Origin: Octopus vulgaris
Taxonomy: Eukaryota
NCBI GenBank assembly: GCA_951406725.2
Contig: OX597819.1
Location: forward strand, 55,614,001 to 55,678,000
Direction: 5' to 3'
DNA: 64,000 nt
Position numbers and translations under genes: made by a program. This document shows, in pieces, positions 1,446 to 55,612 of the stretch. Positions within the stretch are counted from its first letter, which is position 1; each line of letters starts with the position of its first letter. The notes under the pieces are model-generated. The model did not search any database, was not told where the DNA came from, and was given only the letters and a program-made list of their open reading frames with translations.

Positions 1446-2131
1446 CAGGCACAGAAAATGAAATGCAATAGGATGATGTAAAATAAAATATTTACATCAT
1501 TACATTTAAGAATATGTCTACTACTTGAGAATGCTTGTGTCTCTACTCAAGAGAGAAAGTGCAATTTCCTTTATGTGAACACTTATGAGGACTGTGAGGG
1601 TATGGGTGTAAATTGAAGTGCATGAGGTAGTCACGTGACAATTTAAGGCTGATTGCAACAGTGATGTCAAGAGATGTGTTCGTCTTACTGTCTGTGTATT
1701 GTGTTCTATGTTAACCATAAGAACTATAGATCTGAGCCAAAATTATTTAAGAAAATTGATAGTATTTTATCGCCTCGTCTGATTGTCTATGTAAATGTGT
1801 TGCGTGTGTGAATAATGAGTAGTGACTGTTAAGAACACCATCATCATTTAGCATCTGCTTTCCATGTAGATGGTTTGACAGAAAACTGGTAAGCTGGAGA
1901 GCTGCACCAGGTTCCAGTCTGATTTGGCATGGTTTTTATGGATGGATGCTCTTCCTAGCGCCATCCATTCCAAAAGTGCAATGGGTGCCAGTCATCTGAT
2001 ACTGGCATTTGACTACAACTATGATTTCACTTGATGAGTCTTCACAAGCATAGAATATCGCCAAAGATCTTGGTCACTTATCTCCTCCATGAGGCCCAAT
2101 GTTTGAAGGGTGCCTGTTATGTGACACTGGC

Positions 2132-2182
<51 letters not shown>

Positions 2183-2292
2183 CAGATCTGACTGGCCTGG
2201 TGCAGCCTTCGGGCTCCCCAGACCCCAGTTGAACCGTCCAACCCATGCTAGCATGGAAATCGGACGTTAAATGATGATGATGATGATGATGA

Positions 2293-2332
<40 letters not shown>

Positions 2333-2366
2333 AATGTGACCTTCTCGGGATCTTTCCTTCTCCTAT

Positions 2367-2401
2367 GTTTCCGACGAAGAGCTCCGCTCGAAACATTAAA
2401 C
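2367..2401 (+). ncRNA. Variant minimal hammerhead-like motif (core CCGACGA)
   Basis: gttt CCGACGA a gagc-tcc-gctc GAAA ca TT aaac; stems I and II perfect, U4 replaced by C; lies in a short repeat (~2330-2500) between (TA)n tracts. Confidence 0.55.
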
Positions 2402-2496
2402 CCTCCTTCTTTCCTTCTTTCCTGAGCGTCCAATAATACTATATTTGTTCCACGTCCTCGCGTTGTTGTGTTTTTTGTGCTTTCTTGTTTGGATTA

Positions 2497-2538
<42 letters not shown>

Positions 2539-2620
2539 TGCACTTGGACATATACATTTAAACATATGTACAAAACGCATTCATAAAAATGCATATATAT
2601 ATATATATATATATATACCA

Positions 2621-2651
<31 letters not shown>

Positions 2652-2658
2652 CATACCA

Positions 2659-2690
<32 letters not shown>

Positions 2691-2859
2691 GTCATAATTA
2701 CCAACATGCACATATATGCATATAAATATTTGTTTGTAGTGTACAGAATTTATAAAAAATAGTAAAAAATTGCAGCAAAGTCCATTCAAACAGACAGTCA
2801 TGTTGAAGTGGCTACAAACAAACAAAATATTAAGATAGTTAAACAGTAATGAGTAGTAT

Positions 2860-4500
2860 TTTCATGCTATAGGAATTTTTGAAGACGAATATATTTTTTT
2901 TTCTTTTTGGTCACATTATTTTGGGTGCTTCTCCATTTCTAAATGATATGTCAAATCATCTCAAAAGCATTTGCTGATGGGAAACATCTTAAGTTCGTTC
3001 TTCTGGCAAATTTCAAAATGTTTTGAGAGATTATTTTTAGTTTTGGGCTACATATTTGTTGCACATGTATCCTAATCCATTCAGACAAAGAATTTCCAGT
3101 CTAGTGAATATGATTTTTCTTGTATTTGGAACAGTTGATGCAATATATAAAAGATTGTCCACTTCTGAACCAGTTTCCAATTTGTAATTGTTGCTGCTGC
3201 AAGTATTATATCTGTTATTTCCACAGGTTTTTACAGAAAACTTTGAAGTATTTTCCAAAGTGAATATTGCTTTGGCAAAAAGTTCCTCAACACTTTTTGT
3301 TAATAATTGGATTTTTGTTGATTAAATCTTTCATTTTTGTATTTTGCAAAAGGATTGGGAGCTTTGCTTTGATGCAAGTGGTTTTGCCATCAGAGCTAAA
3401 GGTGTTTTCTTCTGATCTTAATTGTAGAGCTTTGATGATGAAATCTGTTATGAAGTGTTTGTTAATCATGTCTCTATGCCTTCTACCCAATATTTCACTG
3501 CTGTTAAGCCTCCTAATGTCTGGTATATTGGCACAGAGACTAGTGACGTTAAAGTTTGTTAAAATGGTGCACTTTGGGACCATTGATGGTATGTATTTAA
3601 GGAAGTCCATTTTATCACATATGTAGCTTGGGCTCTTTGGTGAGAGTAGCTTAAATCTATTAGGTGACATAGGTGTTGTGTTGATGATTGTGGTCCTATC
3701 ATTGTTGTTCTCAGTGTTTCAGTGTATTAGTTATTTTGTTCATTTACAGCTTCCTGCATTTTCAAGCCCTCATGAGCTTAGGGCAATCTGTAAAACCTGC
3801 TTGCTTTACTTTTGAAATTACAAACATTGTCAATTTCTTTCTCTGTGAAAGGAGCTTCAGCATAAGTTGGTTTAACCCTTTAACATTTAGATTACTCTGT
3901 CAAAAGTACTGCTTATTTATTCTTGTTATTTTGAATTAATCATGCATTATCTTGAAGCTTCAAAATTTCAATGATGTGATAGTTTATTTTTAGAATGACA
4001 TTATAGGGTAAGTGCGAGAGGTTGGATGTGGTCAGTTTGAACATTAAACAGATAGAATATCATGGCCAGATGTTGGTTTAAATGCTAAAGGGTTAATGAG
4101 CTGATTTCATTACTTTATAGTTGTTTTCCCCAGGTTTCTTATCTCTTCTTTGCAGCAGTTACTACCCATTAATTGTTCAAGTAGTTTTCCATTGTAATAT
4201 TCTGTATCCATAATGATAATTGCCCTGTTCCTTATTGGTTTCAATTAGTATCATTCTCCAATTTTTGTACAGCTTTTTTCTCTTCTTTCTGAAGGTTCTA
4301 TTTACATTTATGGCTGCTAATGGTGAATTTTGATATCATATCACTGTAAGTAGCCAAATGTTCATCTCTTCCTTTATGCAGAGTAAAACTGGATATATTC
4401 ATGACAAATGAATTGTCCTTTTCATCTTTGCTGTCATTTAAGAATTTTTGTTAGGTGGAGGCATTGGCTAAAGTTTTGAATGTCTGCTTTCATCACAGTT
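2860..4500 (-). mobile_element. Decayed Penelope-like retroelement (RT plus GIY-YIG remnants)
   Basis: ORF 3287-3670 has SYI.D..DFL..IP..VP..TIL..F.VTSL..NIP (PLE RT motif A region) and N.FS.DGK; ORF 3037-3258 has KTCGNNR..TC...TG and NLLY of the Zn/GIY-YIG region; many stops and frameshifts; boundaries approximate. Confidence 0.75.
3876..4092. mobile_element. piggyBac-type MITE (related copy at ~31262-31480)
   Basis: ttaa|ccctttaacattt ... aaatgctaaaggg|ttaa. Confidence 0.8.
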
Positions 4501-8557: not shown

Positions 8558-8685
8558 ACATCAGTACTTGGTTTAAATGAGCACCACCAAGCTCAAGTGG
8601 TTGCATACATGCGTTTTGTCCGATTTCATCGAAGTCAGCAACTTCGTGCAATAAATTCCTGTTTTAATGATGTAAAATGCAGTAG
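8558..8685 (+). CDS. LZTFL1: LZTFL1/BBS17 coding exon A (first visible; presumed exon 2): TSVLGLNEHHQAQVVAYMRFVRFHRSQQLRAINSCFNDVKCS(R)
   Basis: Acceptor ttttctttgaatttcag, donor gtaagt; 128 bp, phase 0 to 2. LGLNEHHQ..V..YMRF and SCF.D.K.SRL match the LZTFL1 N-terminus as I recall it. Confidence 0.93.
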
Positions 8686-9860
8686 GTAAGTTTATATGTG
8701 TACATTATATATTTGGTCATTTTACCAAATATATACGTTTTATTTATTATTTTGCACATTACTTAATCATTGGTATATGTTTTTATGTTACATTTAATTT
8801 TTTTTCTATAGGATGTAATTTTTTTTCCATATGGTATAATTTAATTTTTTCATTGCTGAATTGATAAAAGGTGGTTTTTTTTCTAATTTATATATATATA
8901 TATGCAGAGAGAGAAAGGGCTAAGTCTGTCACTGCTGCACCTTTCTCATTATCTGTATTGTTTGTCACTACTCATTTGTGCTGTTCACTGGTTTAGGACC
9001 CAACTATTTTCCATTCTCCTCACTAACTCCATCATCTGACCTGCCCAGCCCATCTTGAAGCCTGTGCATAGTAGGTTGCATTAGACCAATTGTTCCGTGT
9101 TCACTCTACCTTCACCCTTCTCTGCCGTGCTGCTTATTTTCATCTTAGTTTCACTGTCATCATATTCTTGCATCTACCCTTCCATGCATCCTGAATCTCT
9201 ATCATTGCTCCATCGATGGTAATTTCTTCTCTTGAAAAGGCGGCGAGCTGGCAGAAACATTAGCATGCTGGGTGAAATGCTTAGTGGTATTTTGTCTGCC
9301 ATTACATTCTGAGTTCAAAGCCCGCCAAGGTTGACTTTGCCTTTCATCCTTTCAGGGTTGATAAATTAAGTACTAGTTGCGTACTGGGGGTCAATCTAAT
9401 TTACTGGCTCCCTCCCCCCAAATTTTGGGCCTTGTGCCTAAAGTAGAAAGAATTTCTTCTCTCGAGGTTACTTGACTGTACATAACTATATTTCATTCAA
9501 CACTGTTTGCATATATATATGTATATATGTTCTTATATTTATTTTACTTGTTTCAATCATTTGACTGTGGCCATGCTGGAGCACCACCTTTTGTCGAACA
9601 AATCAACCCCAGGACTTATTCTTTGTAAGCCTAGTACTTATTCTATCGGACTCTTTTGCCAAACTGCTGAGTTACGGGAATGTAAACACACCAGCATCGG
9701 TTGTCAAGTGATTGTGGGTGGGGGGCAAATATAGACACACAAATATATACATACATTCATATACACTCACACACACATATATACACATGCTGTGAAAGCA
9801 CACAGCACCCACGTGTGTTTTCAGTACGTATTAGCTGTATAAATTTATATCAATTTTAGT

Positions 9861-9934
9861 AACCTCACTGATGAATGTACAGATGACAAATTAATTTATT
9901 TGCTCGTTAATACAGAAACTTGAGTTTGGGGTTA
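9861..9934 (+). ncRNA. Minimal type I hammerhead ribozyme motif, copy 1 of tandem pair
   Basis: Stem I aacctca/tggggtt; CTGATGA 9868-9874; bulged A; stem II tgta/taca extended by atga/tcgt and caaat/atttg; GAAA 9915-9918; near-palindromic stem III act-tg-agt; GTT triplet, predicted cut after 9926. Confidence 0.72.
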
Positions 9935-10343
9935 ACTATAAAAATATTTTTTATTTTCATTCTCTTTGAAATTGCTTTTATTCGTGGTTTGGGTTTTGAC
10001 TGCCCTTTCTAGCATCTAAGGTGTCCTGTCAAAGGTTACCTCTTTCGTGTATAAATACTTAATTGTTTGTACACTATTATATATGAAAATATGTTGTCTA
10101 TTGACTTTATTACGCATGCTAGCCACTGGTATGAACAATTTTCTAAATTTTCAACCCTTATTATTCTCTTAGTAAAATTTTCGTAATTTCGAAGCCTTTC
10201 TGGTGTGCAGTTTTAAATTTGTTATTATTTGTTGCTGAATGTCACTGCACTTACACAGTGTATTTGAAAATATAATGTATAAGTATGCAGTACTCGTGAG
10301 TTTTCAGTACGTATTAGCTGTATAAATACATATTAATTTTAGC

Positions 10344-10415
10344 GACCTCACTGATGAAGTACAGATGAGAAATTAATTTATTTGCTCATTAATACAGAAA
10401 CTTGAGTTTGGGGTT
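10344..10415 (+). ncRNA. Minimal type I hammerhead ribozyme motif, copy 2 of tandem pair
   Basis: Stem I gacctca/tggggtt; CTGATGA 10351-10357; stem II gta/tac (A-A at its base) plus atgag/ctcat and aaat/attt; GAAA 10397-10400; same stem III; predicted cut after 10408. Confidence 0.68.
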
Positions 10416-10538
10416 AAATATAGAAATATTTTTTATTTTCATTCTCTTTGAAATTGCTTTTATTCATGGTTTAGGTTTTGACTGCCTTTCTAGCATGTAA
10501 GGTGTCCTATCAAAGTCACCTTTCATGTATCAATACTG

Positions 10539-10592
<54 letters not shown>

Positions 10593-10611
10593 ATATATGT
10601 ATGTGTGTGTG

Positions 10612-10641
<30 letters not shown>

Positions 10642-10642
<1 letters not shown>

Positions 10643-11195
10643 TCCCTTCTTGGGACACAAAACTCTACTTGTGAAGACGTGTTGAGGCAAGTGAGGATCA
10701 GAATCGAAATCGATCAATGGAAATTGCGGATGTGCTACCAGTGCCGGTGGCATGTCGAAACTCTGCTTGTGAAGACCCATTGAGGCAAGTGAGGATCAGA
10801 ATCGAAATCGATCAATGGAAATCGATCAATGGAAATTGCAGATGTGTTACCAGTGCCGGTGGCATGTAAGAGAACTTTCCGTTTCGCGACCGTTGCCAGC
10901 ACCGCTCCGTTTCGTGTCCGTTGCCAGCCTCACCTGGCCCTCGTGCCGGTGGCACATAAAAAGCACCATCCGTTCGTGGCCGTTTGCCAGCTCTGTCTGG
11001 CACCAGTGTGGGTGGCACGTAAAAAGCACCCACTACACTCACGGAGTGGTTGGTGTTAGGAAGGGCATCCAGCCGTAGAAACACTGCCAGATTTGACTGG
11101 GCCTGATGAAGCCTTCTGGCTTCACAGACCCCAGTAGAACCGTCCAACCCATGCTAGCATGGAAGACGGACGCTAAATGATGATGATGATGATGA
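10642..11195 (+). mobile_element. Repeat family C: 5'-truncated 3' UTR of the RTE LINE, (GAT)n tail (representative copy)
   Basis: 5' part matches the sequence just downstream of the RTE stop at 54135-54275; ends ...ccatgctagcatggaa..ggacgttaaa(tga)n. About 20 copies, e.g. 2183, 7058, 13124, 20878, 33991, 38905, 47350, 52215, 56275, 57892, 63301. Confidence 0.85.
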
Positions 11196-11235
11196 TATAT
11201 ATATATGTATATATATATGTGTGTGTGTGTGTGTG

Positions 11236-11280
<45 letters not shown>

Positions 11281-11329
11281 ATATATGTGTGTGTGTGTGT
11301 ATATATATATATGTATATATGTATATATA

Positions 11330-11365
<36 letters not shown>

Positions 11366-12272
11366 CTCTTTACTCTTGTTTACTCTTTTACTTATTTCAG
11401 TCATTTGACTGTGGCCATGCTGAAGTACCGCCTTTAGTCGAGTAAATCGACCCCAGGACTTATTCTTTGTAAGCCTAGTACTTATTCTATCGGTCTCTTT
11501 TGCTGAACCACTAAGTTACTGGGACGTAAACACACCAGCATCGGTTATCAAGCCATGTTTGGTGGACAAACAGACACACAAACACACACATATATATACA
11601 TATATATGACGGGCTTCTTTTCAGTTTCTGCCTACCAAATCCACTCACAAGGCTTTGGTCAGCCTGAGGCTATAGTAGAAGACACTTGCCCAAGGTGCGA
11701 TGCAGTGGGACTGAACCCGGAACCATGTGGTTGGTAAGCAAGTTACTTACCCCACGGCTAGTGGGGTAAGTACTAGGGTCGATTCTTTTGACTAAAAATT
11801 CTTCAAGGCTGTGTCCCATCACGACCACAGTCTAATAATTGAAACAAGTATAAGATAAAAGACAAAAGATATATATAATTATAGGCGCAGGAGTGGCTGT
11901 GTGGTAAGAAGCTTGCTTCCCAACCACATGGTTCTAGGTTCAATCCCACTGCATGGCACCTTGGGCAAATGTCTTTTACTATAGCCTTGGGCTGACCAAA
12001 ACCCTGTGAGTGGATTTGATAGACGGAAACTGAGAGAAGCCTGTCATATATGTGTATAAATGTTATGTATGTGTTTGTCCCCCCACCATCGCTTGACAAC
12101 CGATGTTGCTGTGTTTATGTCCCCGTAAGTTAGTGGTTCAGCAAAAAGAGACCGATAGAATAAGTACTAGTCTTATAAAGAATAAATTGTAGGGTCAATT
12201 TATTTGACTAAAGGTGGTGCTCCAGCATGGCCACAGACAAATGACTGAAAGAAGTAAATGTAAAAAAAAGTA

Positions 12273-12324
<52 letters not shown>

Positions 12325-12328
<4 letters not shown>

Positions 12329-12689
12329 TTGCTATTATGCAAAAGTGTCATAAGTCCAAAATGTTGCCATTTCTTTTTACATTAGCAACAGTTTCAGCTT
12401 AACAATAATACTTTGTTGGGTACATAGAATTTTAACTCCATGCATGTATGATATTTTCAGTCTTAGAAATATTTTTGGAGTTACTACAATATGTTGGAGT
12501 TACTACACTTTTGAAAAATGTTAAACTATTTTACTACACTTTGACAATTTTTGATAGCTTGGCATCTGAAGCAGCTGGAGATACGATAGTTTGACCAAAA
12601 GGACCGGCTATTGCAAGCAAAATTAAATATTGAAAAAAATGCATTTGTCCAAATTTGGACATATGACAGTTTAACATAATAGCAACAAT
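12325..12689. mobile_element. MITE with ~35-bp TIRs (superfamily unassigned)
   Basis: gttgctattatgcaaaagtgtcataagtccaaa versus tttggacatatgacagtttaacataatagcaac. Confidence 0.72.
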
Positions 12690-12742
12690 ACACACACACA
12701 TAGTTTTTCCAAATTTGTGTAAATGTGTATAGAATAATATAT

Positions 12743-13123
12743 CAGTTGAATAAAGTTAAAATATGGTCTGGTTTTCATGTTTTTTCAAGTTCAATTAGCA
12801 CTTACATATATTCATAGTAATCATCAGATTTCAAAAAGTATTTAACCATATTAAAAAAATTCATCTTGTTGGAGCCTTCTAAGAGGTATAAAAAAGGAAG
12901 AAGTCAGTAATTTAATTCAGTTGTCAAGTACTCAACTGTCAGCATTTTGAAATCTGATGATTACTATGAATGTATGAAAGTGCTAATTGAACTTTATGAA
13001 CATTACAAAATATTTTTTTAATGTTTAACACACTTCAACATTGTAAATTTTTTTTTTTAAATACAATAATAAAAACTAAAATACAATTATAAAACAAGAC
13101 CATGTTTTAACTTTATTCAACTG
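12743..13123. mobile_element. Foldback-type MITE with bipartite long inverted repeats
   Basis: Outer IR cagttgaataaagttaaaatatggtc / gaccatgttttaactttattcaactg; inner ~60-bp IR 12778-12837 / 12945-13003. Confidence 0.75.
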
Positions 13124-13712
13124 GGCACGTAAAAAGCACCATCCGATTCGTGGCCGTTGCCAGCTTCGTCTGGTCTCCGTGCCGGTGGCACATAAAAAGC
13201 ATCATCTGATCGTGGCCGTTTGCCAGCCTCGTCTGGCACCTGTGCTGGTGGCACGTAAAAAGCACCCACTACACTCACGGAGTGGTTGGCGTTAGGAAGG
13301 GCATCCAGCTGTAGAAACACTGCCAGATCAGACTGGGCCTGGTGCAGCCTTCTGGCTTCCCAGACCCCAGTTGAACCGTCCAACCCATGCTAGCATGGAA
13401 AGCAGACGTTAAACGATGATGATGATGATATATATATATATGTGTATATATGTGTGTGTGTGTGTATACATATATCATCATCATTGTTTAACACCAGGTT
13501 CCAATCTGATTTGGAAAGGTTTCTACAGCTGGTTGCTCTTCTTAACGCCAATCACTCTGAGAGTATAGTGGGTGCTTTTTACGTGCCACCGGCGTGGGGG
13601 CCAGTCAGGCGGTAATAACATCAACCACACTTGAATGGTGCCTTTTACGTGCCACTGGCATATATATATACTGGAGTAAGCACATAAATGTGAAACAAGG
13701 TAGAATAATATG

Positions 13713-13866
13713 CTTTATTTAAAAGCAGAAGAAATATAACAAAAGCTGTTACTCAGAGTTTCACATTCCTGTTTGTCGGACAGTTCTTGTTTTAACAAGA
13801 ACTGTCCAATGAATGGGAAATTCTGAGTAACAGGTTTTGTTATATTTCTGCTGCTTTTAAATAAAG
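13713..13866. repeat. Inverted repeat of a degenerate hammerhead-bearing segment (PLE pseudo-LTR-like)
   Basis: About 78-bp arms around tt at 13792-13793. Minus-strand arm reads ctgt ccgacaa ac-aggaat-gt GAAA ctctgag TA acag; plus arm has a deletion in stem II/GAAA. Confidence 0.7.
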
Positions 13867-14123
13867 TGTGTGTATATATATATATATATATACATATATG
13901 CATATCTTCAAAGCTGAGTATCTTATTTCTTGTCCGTCCTTTGAGTAGCTTTGATGAATGTACAAGAAACTCAGAGTAACACTGGAGTGAGGGTTCAACT
14001 TCAAATGAATGAATAAAACCTACAGCATGTATTGCATACTTTTCCTCTTGGTTCTAAACACACACACACACACATACATTTGCATATGCTTTTGGCATAG
14101 TAATTATTTTCTTTGTACTTTAG

Positions 14124-14318
14124 GCTCACTGAAGATACTTACACTAATTATGAAGTTGAAGAATTGTTAGATGGACTACTTCAAGTGATTAGAGGTGATA
14201 TGGAGTCAGAACTGATTAACATGGCTCATACCAACATATTGCTTTTGCGACAAATGTTTCAGCAATCGGAGAACTGGCATTTGAAATTGAAGGCTGATAT
14301 ATCTGAACTTGAGAATGT
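14124..14318 (+). CDS. LZTFL1: LZTFL1 exon B: (R)LTEDTYTNYEVEELLDGLLQVIRGDMESELINMAHTNILLLRQMFQQSENWHLKLKADISELEN(V)
   Basis: ctttag acceptor, gtaagt donor; 195 bp, phase 2 to 2. Contains the conserved ESELIN.A.TN.LLLRQ.F and DISELEN motifs. Confidence 0.96.
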
Positions 14319-35801: not shown

Positions 35802-36262
35802 CATTATTTACATTTGACAGATATTTGTCCTCATCTTGTTTGTTATTAACACGTTTTGGCTCATGTACCTTCCAGCCTTCATCAGGTGTCTTGGGGAAAT
35901 TTTGAACCTAAGGTATTTTTACGATGTTGTTGTTATTGTTATTATTCAGGTCACTGCCTGGAATCAAACTCGGAATCTTGGGGTTAGTAGCCTGCACTCT
36001 TAACCACTACGCCATATGCCCTTGGCATATGGCATTCGATTCCAGGCAGTGACTTGAATAATAATAATAACAATAACAATAACAACAACATCGAAAAAAT
36101 CCTTAGGAATGAGAACCCGGGTTCAAAATTTCCCCAAGACACCTGATGAAGGCTGGAGGGTATATCAGCCGAAATGTCGTGTTAACAACAAACAAGATGA
36201 GGACAAATATCCATCAAATGTAAATAATATACATAATTCCTCATCTCTTAAATATAGAATTG
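35802..36262. mobile_element. Palindromic insertion of a tRNA-headed, hammerhead-tailed SINE-like element
   Basis: Arms ~35803-36020 (minus; A box tggcgtagtgg, B-box-like gagtttgattcc) and ~36024-36262 (plus) are reverse complements. Flanked by the 12-bp direct repeat taattacaccaa at 35790-35801 and 36263-36274; interrupts a LINE remnant. Confidence 0.8.
36138..36183 (+). ncRNA. Minimal type I hammerhead ribozyme motif in SINE tail
   Basis: gacac CTGATGA a ggctg[10 nt]cagcc GAAA tg TC gtgtt; stem I gacac/gtgtt; stem III essentially absent (dimer type); predicted cut after 36178. Confidence 0.75.
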
Positions 36263-54134: not shown

Positions 54135-55054
54135 ATTCTGATTTGGTTTGATTTTGATTTTGACTTTCACTTGCCTCAACGAGTCTTCACAAGTGGAGTT
54201 TTGTGTCCCAAGAAGGAAAGGTATGTATAAGTCGACTGGCTACATACCAGGTAGAGGCTACGGGTTATGGTCTCACTAGTCTTGCCGGGTCTTCTCACGC
54301 ACAGCATACTTCCATAGGTCTCGGTCTCTAGTCATTTCCTTGGTGAGACCTAAAGTTCGAAGGTCGTGCTTCACCACCTCATCCCAGGTTTTCCTGGGTC
54401 TGCCTCTTCCACAGGTTCCCTCAACTGCTAGGGTGTGGCACTTTTGCACACAACTATCTTCAGCCATTCTTGTCACATGACCATACCAGCGCAAACGTCT
54501 CTCTTGCACACCACAACTGATGCTTCTTAGGTCCAACTTTTCTCTCAAGGTACTTACACTCTGTCGATTATGAACACTGACATTACACATCCATCGGAGC
54601 ATACTGGCTTCATTTCTTGCGAGCTTACGCATATCCTCAGCAGTCACAGCCCATGTTTCACTACCATGTAGCATGGCTGTATGTACACATGCATCATACA
54701 GTCTGCCTTTTACTCTGAGCGAGAGGTTTTTTGTCACCAGCAGGGGTAAGAGCTCTCTAAACTTTGCTCAGGCTATTCTTACTCTAGCAGTTACACTTTC
54801 AGCACACCCAGCCCCGCTACTGACTTGGTCACCCAGGTAGTGGAAGCTATCAACTACTTCTAGTTTTTCTCCCTGGAACGTGGTAGAAGTTGGTCTCTGC
54901 ACATTTTCAGTGTTTATTGCTCCTGAGCATCTGCCACAGACAAAAACTATTTTCCTAGTTAGCCTTCCTTTGACATTGCTACACCTCTTATGTGTCCATA
55001 GCTTACACTTGGTGCACCTTATAGAGTTTCTACCTACACCTTTTTTACAGATCG
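54135..55054 (-). mobile_element. RTE-clade LINE fragment, same family, less decayed
   Basis: ORFs 54768-55050 and 54276-54737: DSFHYLG, MLHGSETW, ERRLRWYGHV, GRGRPRKTW. Confidence 0.93.
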
Positions 55055-55612
55055 AAAGCCATGTGTGTGGCAGCAGATTCTTGCCATACCTCCAGAAAGA
55101 GTCAGAAGCACTAGCATAGCTAGTGGTGATGGCTGGTGTGGCCCGCACGGGGTGGCACTTTAAAAGGGGTTCCATTTTGGGGTCTGCGGTAGGCAATATG
55201 TGTTTTTTGTGGGGTCCAGGGACGGTAATTGGAAGGCCTACCCCAGGTGGCACACACTCTAGCTACGCTAATGGTCAGAACTGGTTGACTGAGAATTTCT
55301 ACAAGAATTTCACCAGCCCCAATTTCTGGCCTCCTTATTCCCCTAATTGTAATCCTCGGCTTACTATGTTTGGGTTGCAGTTGGGAAAGACACCAACTGC
55401 TCTGCCTGCAGCACAAAGGCCAAACTGGTGACCAAGAACAAAGAGGTGTTCGAAAATCTTCCAAGGGATGCAGTGAGGAACATATGCATCAGGTTCTGGA
55501 GCTATCTTGAGGCCAAGGTGGAGGCTGATGGCAGCTACTTTGAGAAAACTGTTATCATCCAGCCATAATTTAGTTTATATTGTTTGATATTTTTAAAATA
55601 CTATTATTTTTG
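55055..55612 (+). mobile_element. Third fragment of the same Tc1/mariner family
   Basis: CHTSRKSQ..WLTENF..FTSPNFWPPYSPNCNP and FENLPRDAVRNICIRFWSYLEAKVEADGSYFE; alignable to 7580-8460. Confidence 0.8.
55109..55273. mobile_element. 165-bp hAT-type MITE
   Basis: TIRs cactagcatagctag / ctagctacgctaatg (13 of 15 match); 8-bp TSD gtcagaag / gtcagaac. Confidence 0.8.

What the first reader, a model, noticed from the sequence alone, without database searches (positions are those of the whole stretch)
9803..10537. Retrozyme-like tandem pair of hammerhead ribozymes in the sense strand of an LZTFL1 intron
Seen: two ~250-bp direct repeats, each with stem I-CTGATGA-long stem II-GAAA-act(t)gagt-T-stem I. 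Predicted cuts after 9926 and 10408 define a 482-nt non-coding monomer. Some differences between copies keep pairing (A-U vs G.U in stems I and II). Established: minimal type I hammerheads with a short palindromic stem III occur in Penelope-like pseudo-LTRs and metazoan non-LTR retrozymes, cleave as dimers, and tandem copies can release monomers that circularise. Inference: this is a cephalopod retrozyme/non-autonomous PLE whose two motifs could form the dimer in cis, cut the LZTFL1 pre-mRNA and release a 482-nt linear or circular RNA. I do not know of such a family described in octopus but cannot search. The copies have diverged and may be dead (stem III looks like CpG-decayed actcgagt; copy 2 has an A-A at the base of stem II).
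Basis: partly seen in the sequence, partly recalled or inferred. Interest (0 to 1): 0.85.

Follow-up and report, generated by a model that had tools for sequence, protein, structure and literature searches.

The report
Old hammerhead retrozyme in LZTFL1 intron
Two hammerhead-ribozyme motifs 482 bases apart in an LZTFL1 intron are one diverged insertion of a dispersed non-coding repeat family whose copies end the way Penelope-type retrotransposon insertions do, so the family was likely spread by that machinery, likely from a self-cut RNA circle, and this decayed copy is probably inert.

Summary
Observation confirmed: two 91%-identical repeats, period 482 bp, each with a type I hammerhead, sense in an LZTFL1 intron (8686-14123). 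It is a 1.5-unit copy of a dispersed non-coding family. Across 88 copies all six stem I pairs show compensatory changes, so the ribozyme fold was likely under selection in the master lineage. The A·A at the base of stem II is the family state, not damage. Copies are 5'-truncated and end in (TA)n at two fixed sites 80 bp apart. In 37 of 38 classifiable inverted insertions the two arms use different sites: the Penelope 'tail' signature. No near-identical young copies were found among those sampled. This copy's repeats differ by 7%, both palindromes are CpG-decayed, and the predicted double hammerhead collapses when flank is added. No partner element was found; expression is untested. The same genome holds a young 353-bp retrozyme with 97-100% identical arrays of up to 5 units and the same signature. 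It is the better subject, and offers a direct test of whether Penelope enzymes build retrozyme arrays from RNA circles. Verdict: new member of a known kind; a role in LZTFL1 is unlikely.

The parts
9803..10537 (+). 1.5-unit insertion of a 482-bp non-coding retrozyme-type family; 5'-truncated near 9803-9810, 3' end at the family's first end site (after a short deletion), running into (TA)n
9857..9938 (+). Hammerhead copy 1: stem I 9862-9867 with 9927-9932, outer helix 9857-9859 with 9936-9938, core 9868-9874 and 9915-9918, stem II 9876-9914 with a private 1-nt insertion, decayed palindrome 9918-9925, predicted cut after 9926
   Evidence: 97.6 bits; this copy is in the model's training set
10340..10420 (+). 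Hammerhead copy 2: stem I 10345-10350 with 10409-10414, core 10351-10357 and 10397-10400, family-type A·A at the base of stem II, one broken pair in upper stem II and one in the outer helix, decayed palindrome 10400-10407, predicted cut after 10408
   Evidence: 98.4 bits; in the training set
9927..10408 (+). Predicted cut-to-cut monomer, 482 nt, 30% GC; circular fold -97 kcal/mol, z -2.6 against 60 shuffles
10084..10096 (+). End site E1: first cluster of family 3' ends (82 of 172 segments), inferred reverse-transcription start site 1
10168..10174 (+). End site E2: second cluster of family 3' ends (62 of 172 segments), inferred start site 2; E1 to E2 is an ~80-bp PLE-type tail
10538..10642 (.). 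(TA)n/(TG)n microsatellite at the 3' end, the family's usual insertion context (128 of 172 3' ends against 27 of 172 5' ends)
8567..8685 (+). LZTFL1 coding exon upstream of the insertion (its 5' edge not fixed); donor GT at 8686
14124..14316 (+). Next LZTFL1 coding exon (Pfam Leu_zip 24-88); acceptor AG at 14122-14123

Best explanation
This is a diverged 1.5-unit insertion of a dispersed, non-coding 482-bp repeat family with a covarying type I hammerhead fold, likely mobilised in trans by a Penelope-like element's reverse transcriptase/endonuclease, likely from a ribozyme-cut and re-joined RNA circle, and this particular copy is probably inert. Proposed cycle: (1) a transcript with two hammerheads pairs them through the stem III palindrome and cuts out a 482-nt monomer (inferred from fold and precedent); (2) the monomer circularises (inferred); (3) the PLE enzyme nicks both strands of a (TA)n target and starts copying at two fixed internal sites 166 and 248 nt behind the cut site, one site per strand (end positions shown, enzyme inferred); (4) copying runs through the ribozyme junction and stops at random, giving truncated, inverted and more-than-unit copies (shown). 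The window copy landed in the LZTFL1 intron very roughly 10 million years ago (inferred) and has decayed since. If it still cuts, folding predicts that copy 1's core acting on site 10408 is the likelier half.
For: Family: 62 matches from 40 scored of 1827 candidates, 75-93% identical; 172 unique segments from 233 loci, median 263 nt, 28 of at least one unit. Selection on the fold: in 88 motifs 87.6% of cells pair, covariation 0.207 against 0.129±0.005 (0 of 500 shuffles) and 0.05-0.07 for slid partners; all 6 stem I pairs and the 10.2-11.2 pair change on both sides. Nine common polymorphisms lie in the ribozyme and none in the 11 core positions. Position 17 is G in 1 of 27 motifs where the pattern left it free. 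PLE footprint: two 3'-end clusters, (TA)n targets, 55 inverted 5'-to-5' pairs of which 37 split E1/E2, 1 is E1/E1 and none E2/E2 (binomial P 5e-11). This matches the tail found on one end of PLE insertions (10.1101/2021.04.23.441226) and the two internal RT start sites of a PLE in vitro (PMC11167929). 116 of 172 segments run through the cut site. The two repeats of one insertion agree at 103 of 124 subfamily-diagnostic cells. A young autonomous Neptune-type PLE in the same genome also ends in (TA)n and has a ~30-bp tail in 2 copies. A young 353-bp family repeats the whole pattern, with arrays of up to 5.1 units. Probably inert: repeats differ at 17 of 243 sites; the palindrome duplex is -5.8 against -10.7 kcal/mol for an intact natural copy; only 1 of 9 genomic Xenopus dimers cleaved in vitro (10.64898/2026.07.22.740005).
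Against: No autonomous partner sharing sequence with the unit was found; the young Neptune shares none and has a different hammerhead. Nothing here shows a circle: read-through of the cut site fits an uncut linear template equally well, and the PLE tested in vitro used unprocessed RNA. Only 1 of 172 segments exceeds two units. Covariation counts are inflated by relatedness, and the 88 motifs were picked for intact cores. The G10.1-C11.1 pair is present in only 9 of 88, which could mean low activity. Against 'inert': the window copy is the least diverged of 21 more-than-unit insertions (7.0% against a mean of 15.4%), keeps all core bases, and folded alone forms the swapped stem I and palindrome helices with probability about 0.65.
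Confidence: 0.6

Rival explanations
1. Same family and same PLE enzyme, but the template is an uncut linear transcript from a tandem master locus. The hammerhead is kept for another step (release from a read-through transcript, RNA turnover) and no circle is needed.
For: Poseidon in vitro used unprocessed RNA and no RNA ends were seen at its cut site (PMC11167929). Family copies rarely exceed 1.5 units (9 of 172 at 650 nt or more). No 5' end falls exactly on the first base after the cut (0 of 172).
Against: The young 353-bp family has arrays of 1 to 5.1 near-identical units at scattered sites, each ending at one of the two start sites, which a small circle explains simply. Mussel, coral and axolotl retrozymes accumulate as circles (PMC7229834). 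No consistent 5'-repeat versus 3'-repeat differences of a fixed tandem master stood out (weak test).
Confidence: 0.27
2. The repeats are pseudo-LTR remnants of an autonomous Penelope-like element (a truncated partial tandem), not an independent non-autonomous element.
For: Truncation, inversion, tail and palindromic stem III are all pLTR features. Retrozymes are proposed to derive from pLTRs.
Against: Wherever copies extend upstream of the ribozyme they continue into the unit itself, with period 482-485 in four subfamily groups down to about 65-72% identity. No RT or endonuclease sequence is contiguous with the unit; nearby Neptune pieces are separated from it by (TA)n or flank.
Confidence: 0.06
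3. The insertion was kept because its ribozymes cut the LZTFL1 pre-mRNA and tune splicing or output, as proposed for conserved intronic hammerheads in amniotes.
For: Sense orientation, two motifs in cis, all core bases intact, lowest repeat-to-repeat divergence of 21. The DNA is held at half of its words or more by runs of four organism labels.
Against: Changes since insertion look like decay: CpG loss in both palindromes and in loop 1 of copy 1, and two broken pairs in copy 2. With 250 nt more upstream flank, the swapped helices fall to about 1e-5. Youth explains the low divergence.
Confidence: 0.04
4. A local tandem duplication or satellite unit grown by unequal crossover; the hammerhead likeness is incidental.
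For: The bare motif is near chance level in the window, Rfam gives no hit, and unequal crossover is the model offered for retrozyme arrays.
Against: Dispersed copies with the same junction and fixed ends, covariation in all stem I pairs, and pattern counts of 11, 36 and 28 against 0.
Confidence: 0.03

Closest known systems
Metazoan non-LTR retrozymes (Cervera and de la Peña 2020, PMC7229834; mussel, coral, axolotl)
   Same: Non-coding, low-GC unit with one type I hammerhead per repeat, more-than-unit copies, 2-bp stem III with a palindromic loop. A mismatch at the base of stem II has a precedent (U·U in axolotl HHR_Amex2, which cleaves better as a dimer).
   Different: Unit of 482 nt is above the 170-400 nt quoted for invertebrates; stem II is about 13 pairs with internal loops; copies are mostly truncated or inverted single insertions rather than long arrays; circles and cleavage not shown here.
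Penelope-like elements of the Neptune/Poseidon type and their pLTR hammerheads (PMC4209133; 10.1101/2021.04.23.441226; PMC11167929)
   Same: 5' truncation, partial tandems, inverted 5' arm, tail on one end, two fixed 3' ends, AT-rich targets, palindromic stem III.
   Different: No RT/GIY-YIG frame; tail about 80 bp rather than 30-40; 6-bp stem I with internal loop and outer helix rather than a minimal motif; G10.1-C11.1 lost in most subfamilies.
Vertebrate non-LTR retrozymes as PLE derivatives (Li, Clavereau, Pollet 2026, 10.64898/2026.07.22.740005)
   Same: Co-occurrence with PLEs, monomer and dimer copies, intronic copies common in number.
   Different: That work links them by pLTR similarity in Xenopus and sampled no mollusc; 'tail' does not occur in its main text. 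Here the link is the insertion footprint, and no pLTR relative was found.

Membership tests
Type I hammerhead ribozyme | Core CUGANGA, GAAA, U16.1 and H17 in register | tested here: met
   Both window copies; N7 takes all four bases; G at 17 in 1 of 27 unconstrained motifs
Type I hammerhead ribozyme | Three helices with the ends in stem I, supported by covariation | tested here: met
   All 6 stem I pairs and 4 stem II pairs change on both sides in 88 motifs; relatedness inflates the counts
Type I hammerhead ribozyme | Conserved G10.1-C11.1 pair | tested here: not met
   G-C in 9 of 88, no standard pair in 71; window: A·A in copy 2, U-A by insertion in copy 1. Highly conserved but not universal (axolotl U·U), so the motif is filed as a variant
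Type I hammerhead ribozyme | Rfam hammerhead model match | tested here: not met
   None at E<=5 for 9000-11500; none at gathering score for five loci, including three short-stem families
Type I hammerhead ribozyme | Self-cleavage in Mg2+ | not testable with these tools
   Needs in vitro transcription
Non-LTR retrozyme | Non-coding, low-GC repeat with a hammerhead in each of at least two consecutive units | tested here: met
   30% GC; no frame of 110 codons or more over 9803-10537; two-motif insertions here and at L020, L137, L295
Non-LTR retrozyme | Dispersed multi-copy family | tested here: met
Non-LTR retrozyme | Long head-to-tail arrays | tested here: inconclusive
   1 of 172 segments is over two units; the sample is limited to top-scoring hits
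Non-LTR retrozyme | Expressed as circular RNA | not testable with these tools
   Only contigs could be laid; they cannot show strand, ends or circles
PLE-mobilised insertion | Two fixed 3' ends (tail) split between the ends of an insertion | tested here: met
   37 of 38 classifiable inverted pairs; 17 further pairs had an arm outside both clusters
PLE-mobilised insertion | 5' truncation, inverted 5' arm, AT-rich target | tested here: met
Autonomous PLE | RT plus GIY-YIG frame between pLTRs | tested here: not met
   None contiguous with the unit in the loci fetched
Plant LTR retrozyme | Type III hammerhead in LTRs with PBS, PPT and 4-bp target duplication | tested here: not met
   Topology is type I; PBS/PPT not searched; target duplication unreadable in microsatellite

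The most novel reading that the evidence does not exclude
Retrozyme arrays in this genome are written in one step at insertion: a Penelope-type enzyme primes both target strands at two fixed sites on a ribozyme-made RNA circle and runs round it. The 482-bp family is an extinct passenger of this route and the 353-bp family (97-100% identical arrays of 1-5 units, several hundred identical ribozymes) is using it now. This would be a direct genomic footprint of PLE mobilisation of animal retrozymes, and a natural series of hammerheads that stayed mobile with A·A, A·G, U·U or C·A in place of G10.1-C11.1.
Probability: 0.5. Interest if true: 0.72.

Novelty: new member of a known kind. Interest (0 to 1): 0.5.

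Why it matters
Which enzyme moves animal retrozymes, and how their arrays arise, is open. The 2020 paper calls PLEs a strong candidate, and the 2026 preprint argues from shared terminal sequence and invokes unequal crossover for arrays. The split of two fixed 3' ends between the arms of inverted insertions ties two unrelated retrozyme families to the PLE two-start-site mechanism. The young family supplies the material for a direct test. I found no description of cephalopod hammerheads or retrozymes in searches, nor in the text and supplement of the 2026 O. vulgaris repeat annotation. Repbase/Dfam entries, subscription papers and bioRxiv supplements were not visible and may hold these families. 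The intronic copy itself is most likely a bystander.

Tried and rejected
Partner search: none found. L042 has a family hammerhead directly followed by a young Neptune piece, but a (TA)4 lies between them and full Neptune copies share nothing with the unit. A subgroup with motifs 1064 bp apart (L137) turned out to be the same unit with another repeat inserted. Upstream flanks shared by three copies were a common high-copy repeat. 5' ends at the cut site: 11 lie in the 10 nt after it against 5.1 per 10 nt upstream (Poisson P 0.015), but none exactly on it, 14 lie in the next 15 nt, and 90 loci were selected on the region just behind the cut; inconclusive. A 9-bp inverted tail at 9790-9798: 1 of 65 solo segments against 2 of 65 in control flank, so chance level. 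Folding as evidence of activity: probability of the swapped helices 0.46, 0.03 and 1e-5 for three RNA lengths; not usable. Expression: no RNA holder listed. The one guessed-RNA run laid gave a single 163-nt contig about 91% alike and is no evidence either way. A contig of X4 covers 9791-9936 with one difference but has too few letters left of the junction to count as bridging it. Rfam: nothing. One search used a structure string one column out of register and is discarded; one search is the corrected count on 45 motifs (weaker: score 48 of 500 shuffles). Two of 90 regex hits were dropped as non-family before alignment A3. Earlier scan findings: none returned. The Lünse 2017 paper on PLE hammerhead dimers was not held; only its title was seen.

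Full report
Observation. The two repeats are real: spacing 481-483, 91% identical over 248 columns. Each carries CTGATGA, a long stem II, GAAA, a near-palindromic 8-mer, U17 and a 6-bp stem I; predicted cuts follow 9926 and 10408 and define 482 nt at 30% GC. Pfam Leu_zip positions 24-88 match 14122-14316 on +. An upstream exon ends at 8685, and a GT..AG intron 8686-14123 joins the two in frame (the upstream exon was found with a short recalled motif). So the element is sense and intronic. The bare motif is near chance in 64 kb (6 against 2.1) and Rfam has no hammerhead hit; the case rests on the family.

The family. A search of G000 gave 1827 candidates, of which 40 were scored, yielding 62 matches at 75-93%. 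From 233 loci fetched I extracted 172 unique segments: median 263 nt, 28 of at least one unit, 9 of at least 650 nt, 1 over two units. The sample consists of top-scoring hits and is not a census. Upstream of the ribozyme, copies always continue into the unit itself; no RT or endonuclease frame is contiguous with it. Best identities between segments have a median of 89% and a 95th percentile of 93% (148 segments); the only exceptions are two pairs at 97-99%, one of them the two arms of a single locus. No young burst was seen. Family sequence was also laid from runs labelled organisms B, C and E.

The ribozyme. Exact patterns gave 11, 36 and 28 genomic matches against 0 in reversed controls and exposed at least four subfamily groups, the most distant 65-72% identical to the window. 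In 88 aligned motifs (90 hits, 2 non-family rows dropped; cores intact by selection) 87.6% of cells pair, the covariation score is 0.207 against 0.129±0.005 (0 of 500 shuffles) and 0.05-0.07 for slid partners. All six stem I pairs change on both sides, for example U-A 29 / C-G 25, C-G 38 / U-A 27, A-U 66 / G-C 10, and 10.2-11.2 is G-C 46 / C-G 32. Stem I was not constrained by any pattern. Cells count sequences, not events, and the two measures that count pairs or types did not exceed the shuffles. In 28 loci chosen on whole-element similarity, 9 of 30 common polymorphisms fall in the ribozyme and none in the 11 core positions; core identity is 93.6% against 88.7% for base-matched positions (P about 0.03). 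Position 17 is A 16, U 9, C 1, G 1 where left free. The 10.1-11.1 pair is G-C in only 9 of 88 and mostly A·A, so copy 2 shows the family state and copy 1's U-A is a private insertion. An axolotl retrozyme with U·U there still cleaves, better as a dimer (PMC7229834).

How copies were inserted. 3' ends cluster at two sites, E1 (82 of 172; window 10084-10096) and E2 (62 of 172; 10168-10174). 128 of 172 3' ends abut a microsatellite against 27 of 172 5' ends. There are 55 inverted pairs joined at their 5' ends and none joined at their 3' ends. Of the 38 with both ends in a cluster, 37 have E1 on one arm and E2 on the other (P 5e-11); 17 have an arm outside both clusters. PLE insertions are described with truncation, an inverted 5' arm and a 30-40 bp tail on one end (10.1101/2021.04.23.441226). 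A Poseidon enzyme nicks and extends both strands of AT-rich DNA and starts at two internal RNA sites that bound the tail (PMC11167929). I infer that a PLE enzyme made these copies, one start site per strand, with a tail of about 80 bp. 116 of 172 segments run through the cut site, so the template was either uncut or re-joined. The data do not separate these; 5' ends show no sharp pile-up at the cut.

This copy. Its repeats differ at 17 of 243 sites, the least of 21 more-than-unit insertions (mean 15.4%). If they were identical at insertion and the calibration quoted in PMC13282606 applies (JC 0.09 = 25 My), the age is about 10 My; this is rough. Both palindromes carry the same CpG change, weakening the dimer helix from -10.7 to -5.8 kcal/mol. 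A cis double hammerhead is nested and feasible. Folded alone, the half in which copy 1's core faces site 10408 forms its helices with probability about 0.65 and the other half about 0.07. With the core held open this drops to 2e-2, and with added flank to 1e-3 and 4e-7. Folding therefore neither supports nor excludes activity. Only 1 of 9 genomic Xenopus dimers cleaved in vitro. I put measurable in vitro cleavage of this copy at about 0.3 and a role in LZTFL1 at about 0.04.

Where the evidence led. A looser pattern gave 1096 matches against 0 in the control. By my hand count, 48 of the 100 listed are one identical 33-nt hammerhead with a canonical G-C pair and the same palindrome, often 353 bp apart. 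These loci hold arrays of up to 5.1 units at 97-100% identity, ending in (TA)n at +171-174 or +216-224 after the cut. All 6 inverted pairs with both ends in a cluster split the two sites (L239, L241, L244, L247, L250, L257); four others could not be classed. The 353-bp unit is unrelated to the 482-bp unit outside the ribozyme, though the model from A3 finds its motif at 31-35 bits. The genome also has a young Neptune-type PLE (RT and GIY-YIG, many identical intact 781-codon frames) with (TA)n ends and a ~30-bp tail in 2 of the 27 distinct ends printed. It shares no sequence with the 482-bp unit and is not shown to be the partner of either family.

Comparison and verdict. It works like a metazoan non-LTR retrozyme and meets the sequence-level criteria. 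Cleavage and circles could not be tested, the G10.1-C11.1 pair is not met, and it is not an autonomous PLE. Papers seen: 10.64898/2026.07.22.740005 parts 1-3 of 5 and passages (supplements closed); PMC7229834 part 3 of 6 and passages; PMC4209133 parts 1-2 of 4; PMC11167929 part 1 of 4 and passages; 10.1101/2021.04.23.441226 passages; PMC13282606 passages and its one supplement; PMC6765202 passages. Searches listed no cephalopod hammerhead or retrozyme paper; repeat databases were not available. Hammerhead numbering and the NUH rule are from my own knowledge. Novelty: new member of a known kind. Interest 0.5, carried by the insertion footprint and the young family rather than by the intronic copy.

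Noticed in passing
L262:1033-2110, L325:1274-3076, L326 and many more (listing): Young 353-bp retrozyme family: identical canonical hammerheads (48 of the first 100 of 1096 pattern matches), arrays of 1-5.1 units at 97-100% identity, (TA)n ends, two 3' end sites about 45 bp apart split between inverted arms. Expression not tested.
   Followed up: partly
L092:768-2204 and 2126-4468; L093 likewise: Young Neptune-type PLE with many identical intact 781-codon RT/GIY-YIG frames, preceded by an overlapping 479-codon frame with no Pfam match over cut-off, 504-bp terminal repeats and a U3/A8-type hammerhead variant. An upstream frame is unusual for endonuclease-bearing PLEs, which are described as single-ORF.
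   Followed up: partly
L236-L238, L252-L254, L256, L259, L327: Further short-stem hammerhead families with the same palindrome and U·U or C·A at the base of stem II, related to the 353-bp unit at 72-89%.
   Followed up: partly
window 36138-36183: Another minimal hammerhead-like motif on +, with stem II, a probably CpG-decayed 4-nt palindrome and a 5-bp stem I; fold z only -0.4.
   Followed up: partly
L137:6948-7567: Five to six near-identical 126-bp tandem copies of the part of the unit behind E2, upstream of a two-motif insertion; possibly template slippage.
   Followed up: no
L042:1501-2512: A young Neptune piece sits directly behind an old family hammerhead, separated by (TA)4; read as shared targeting of (TA)n.
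   Followed up: yes
window 9240-9460, 9542-9763, 11386-11565: Very high-copy short repeats flank the insertion (summed contig depth in the millions); the same kinds interrupt other family copies (L016, L137).
   Followed up: no
window 54279-55488 (-): Three adjacent open frames that look like the end of a LINE-type reverse transcriptase gene (likeness recalled, not searched).
   Followed up: no
L020:2578-2654 and 3070-3146; L026; L007/L008: Other hammerhead-like motifs with different palindromes in the flanks of family loci, one pair inverted; L008 lies beside a GIY-YIG fragment.
   Followed up: no
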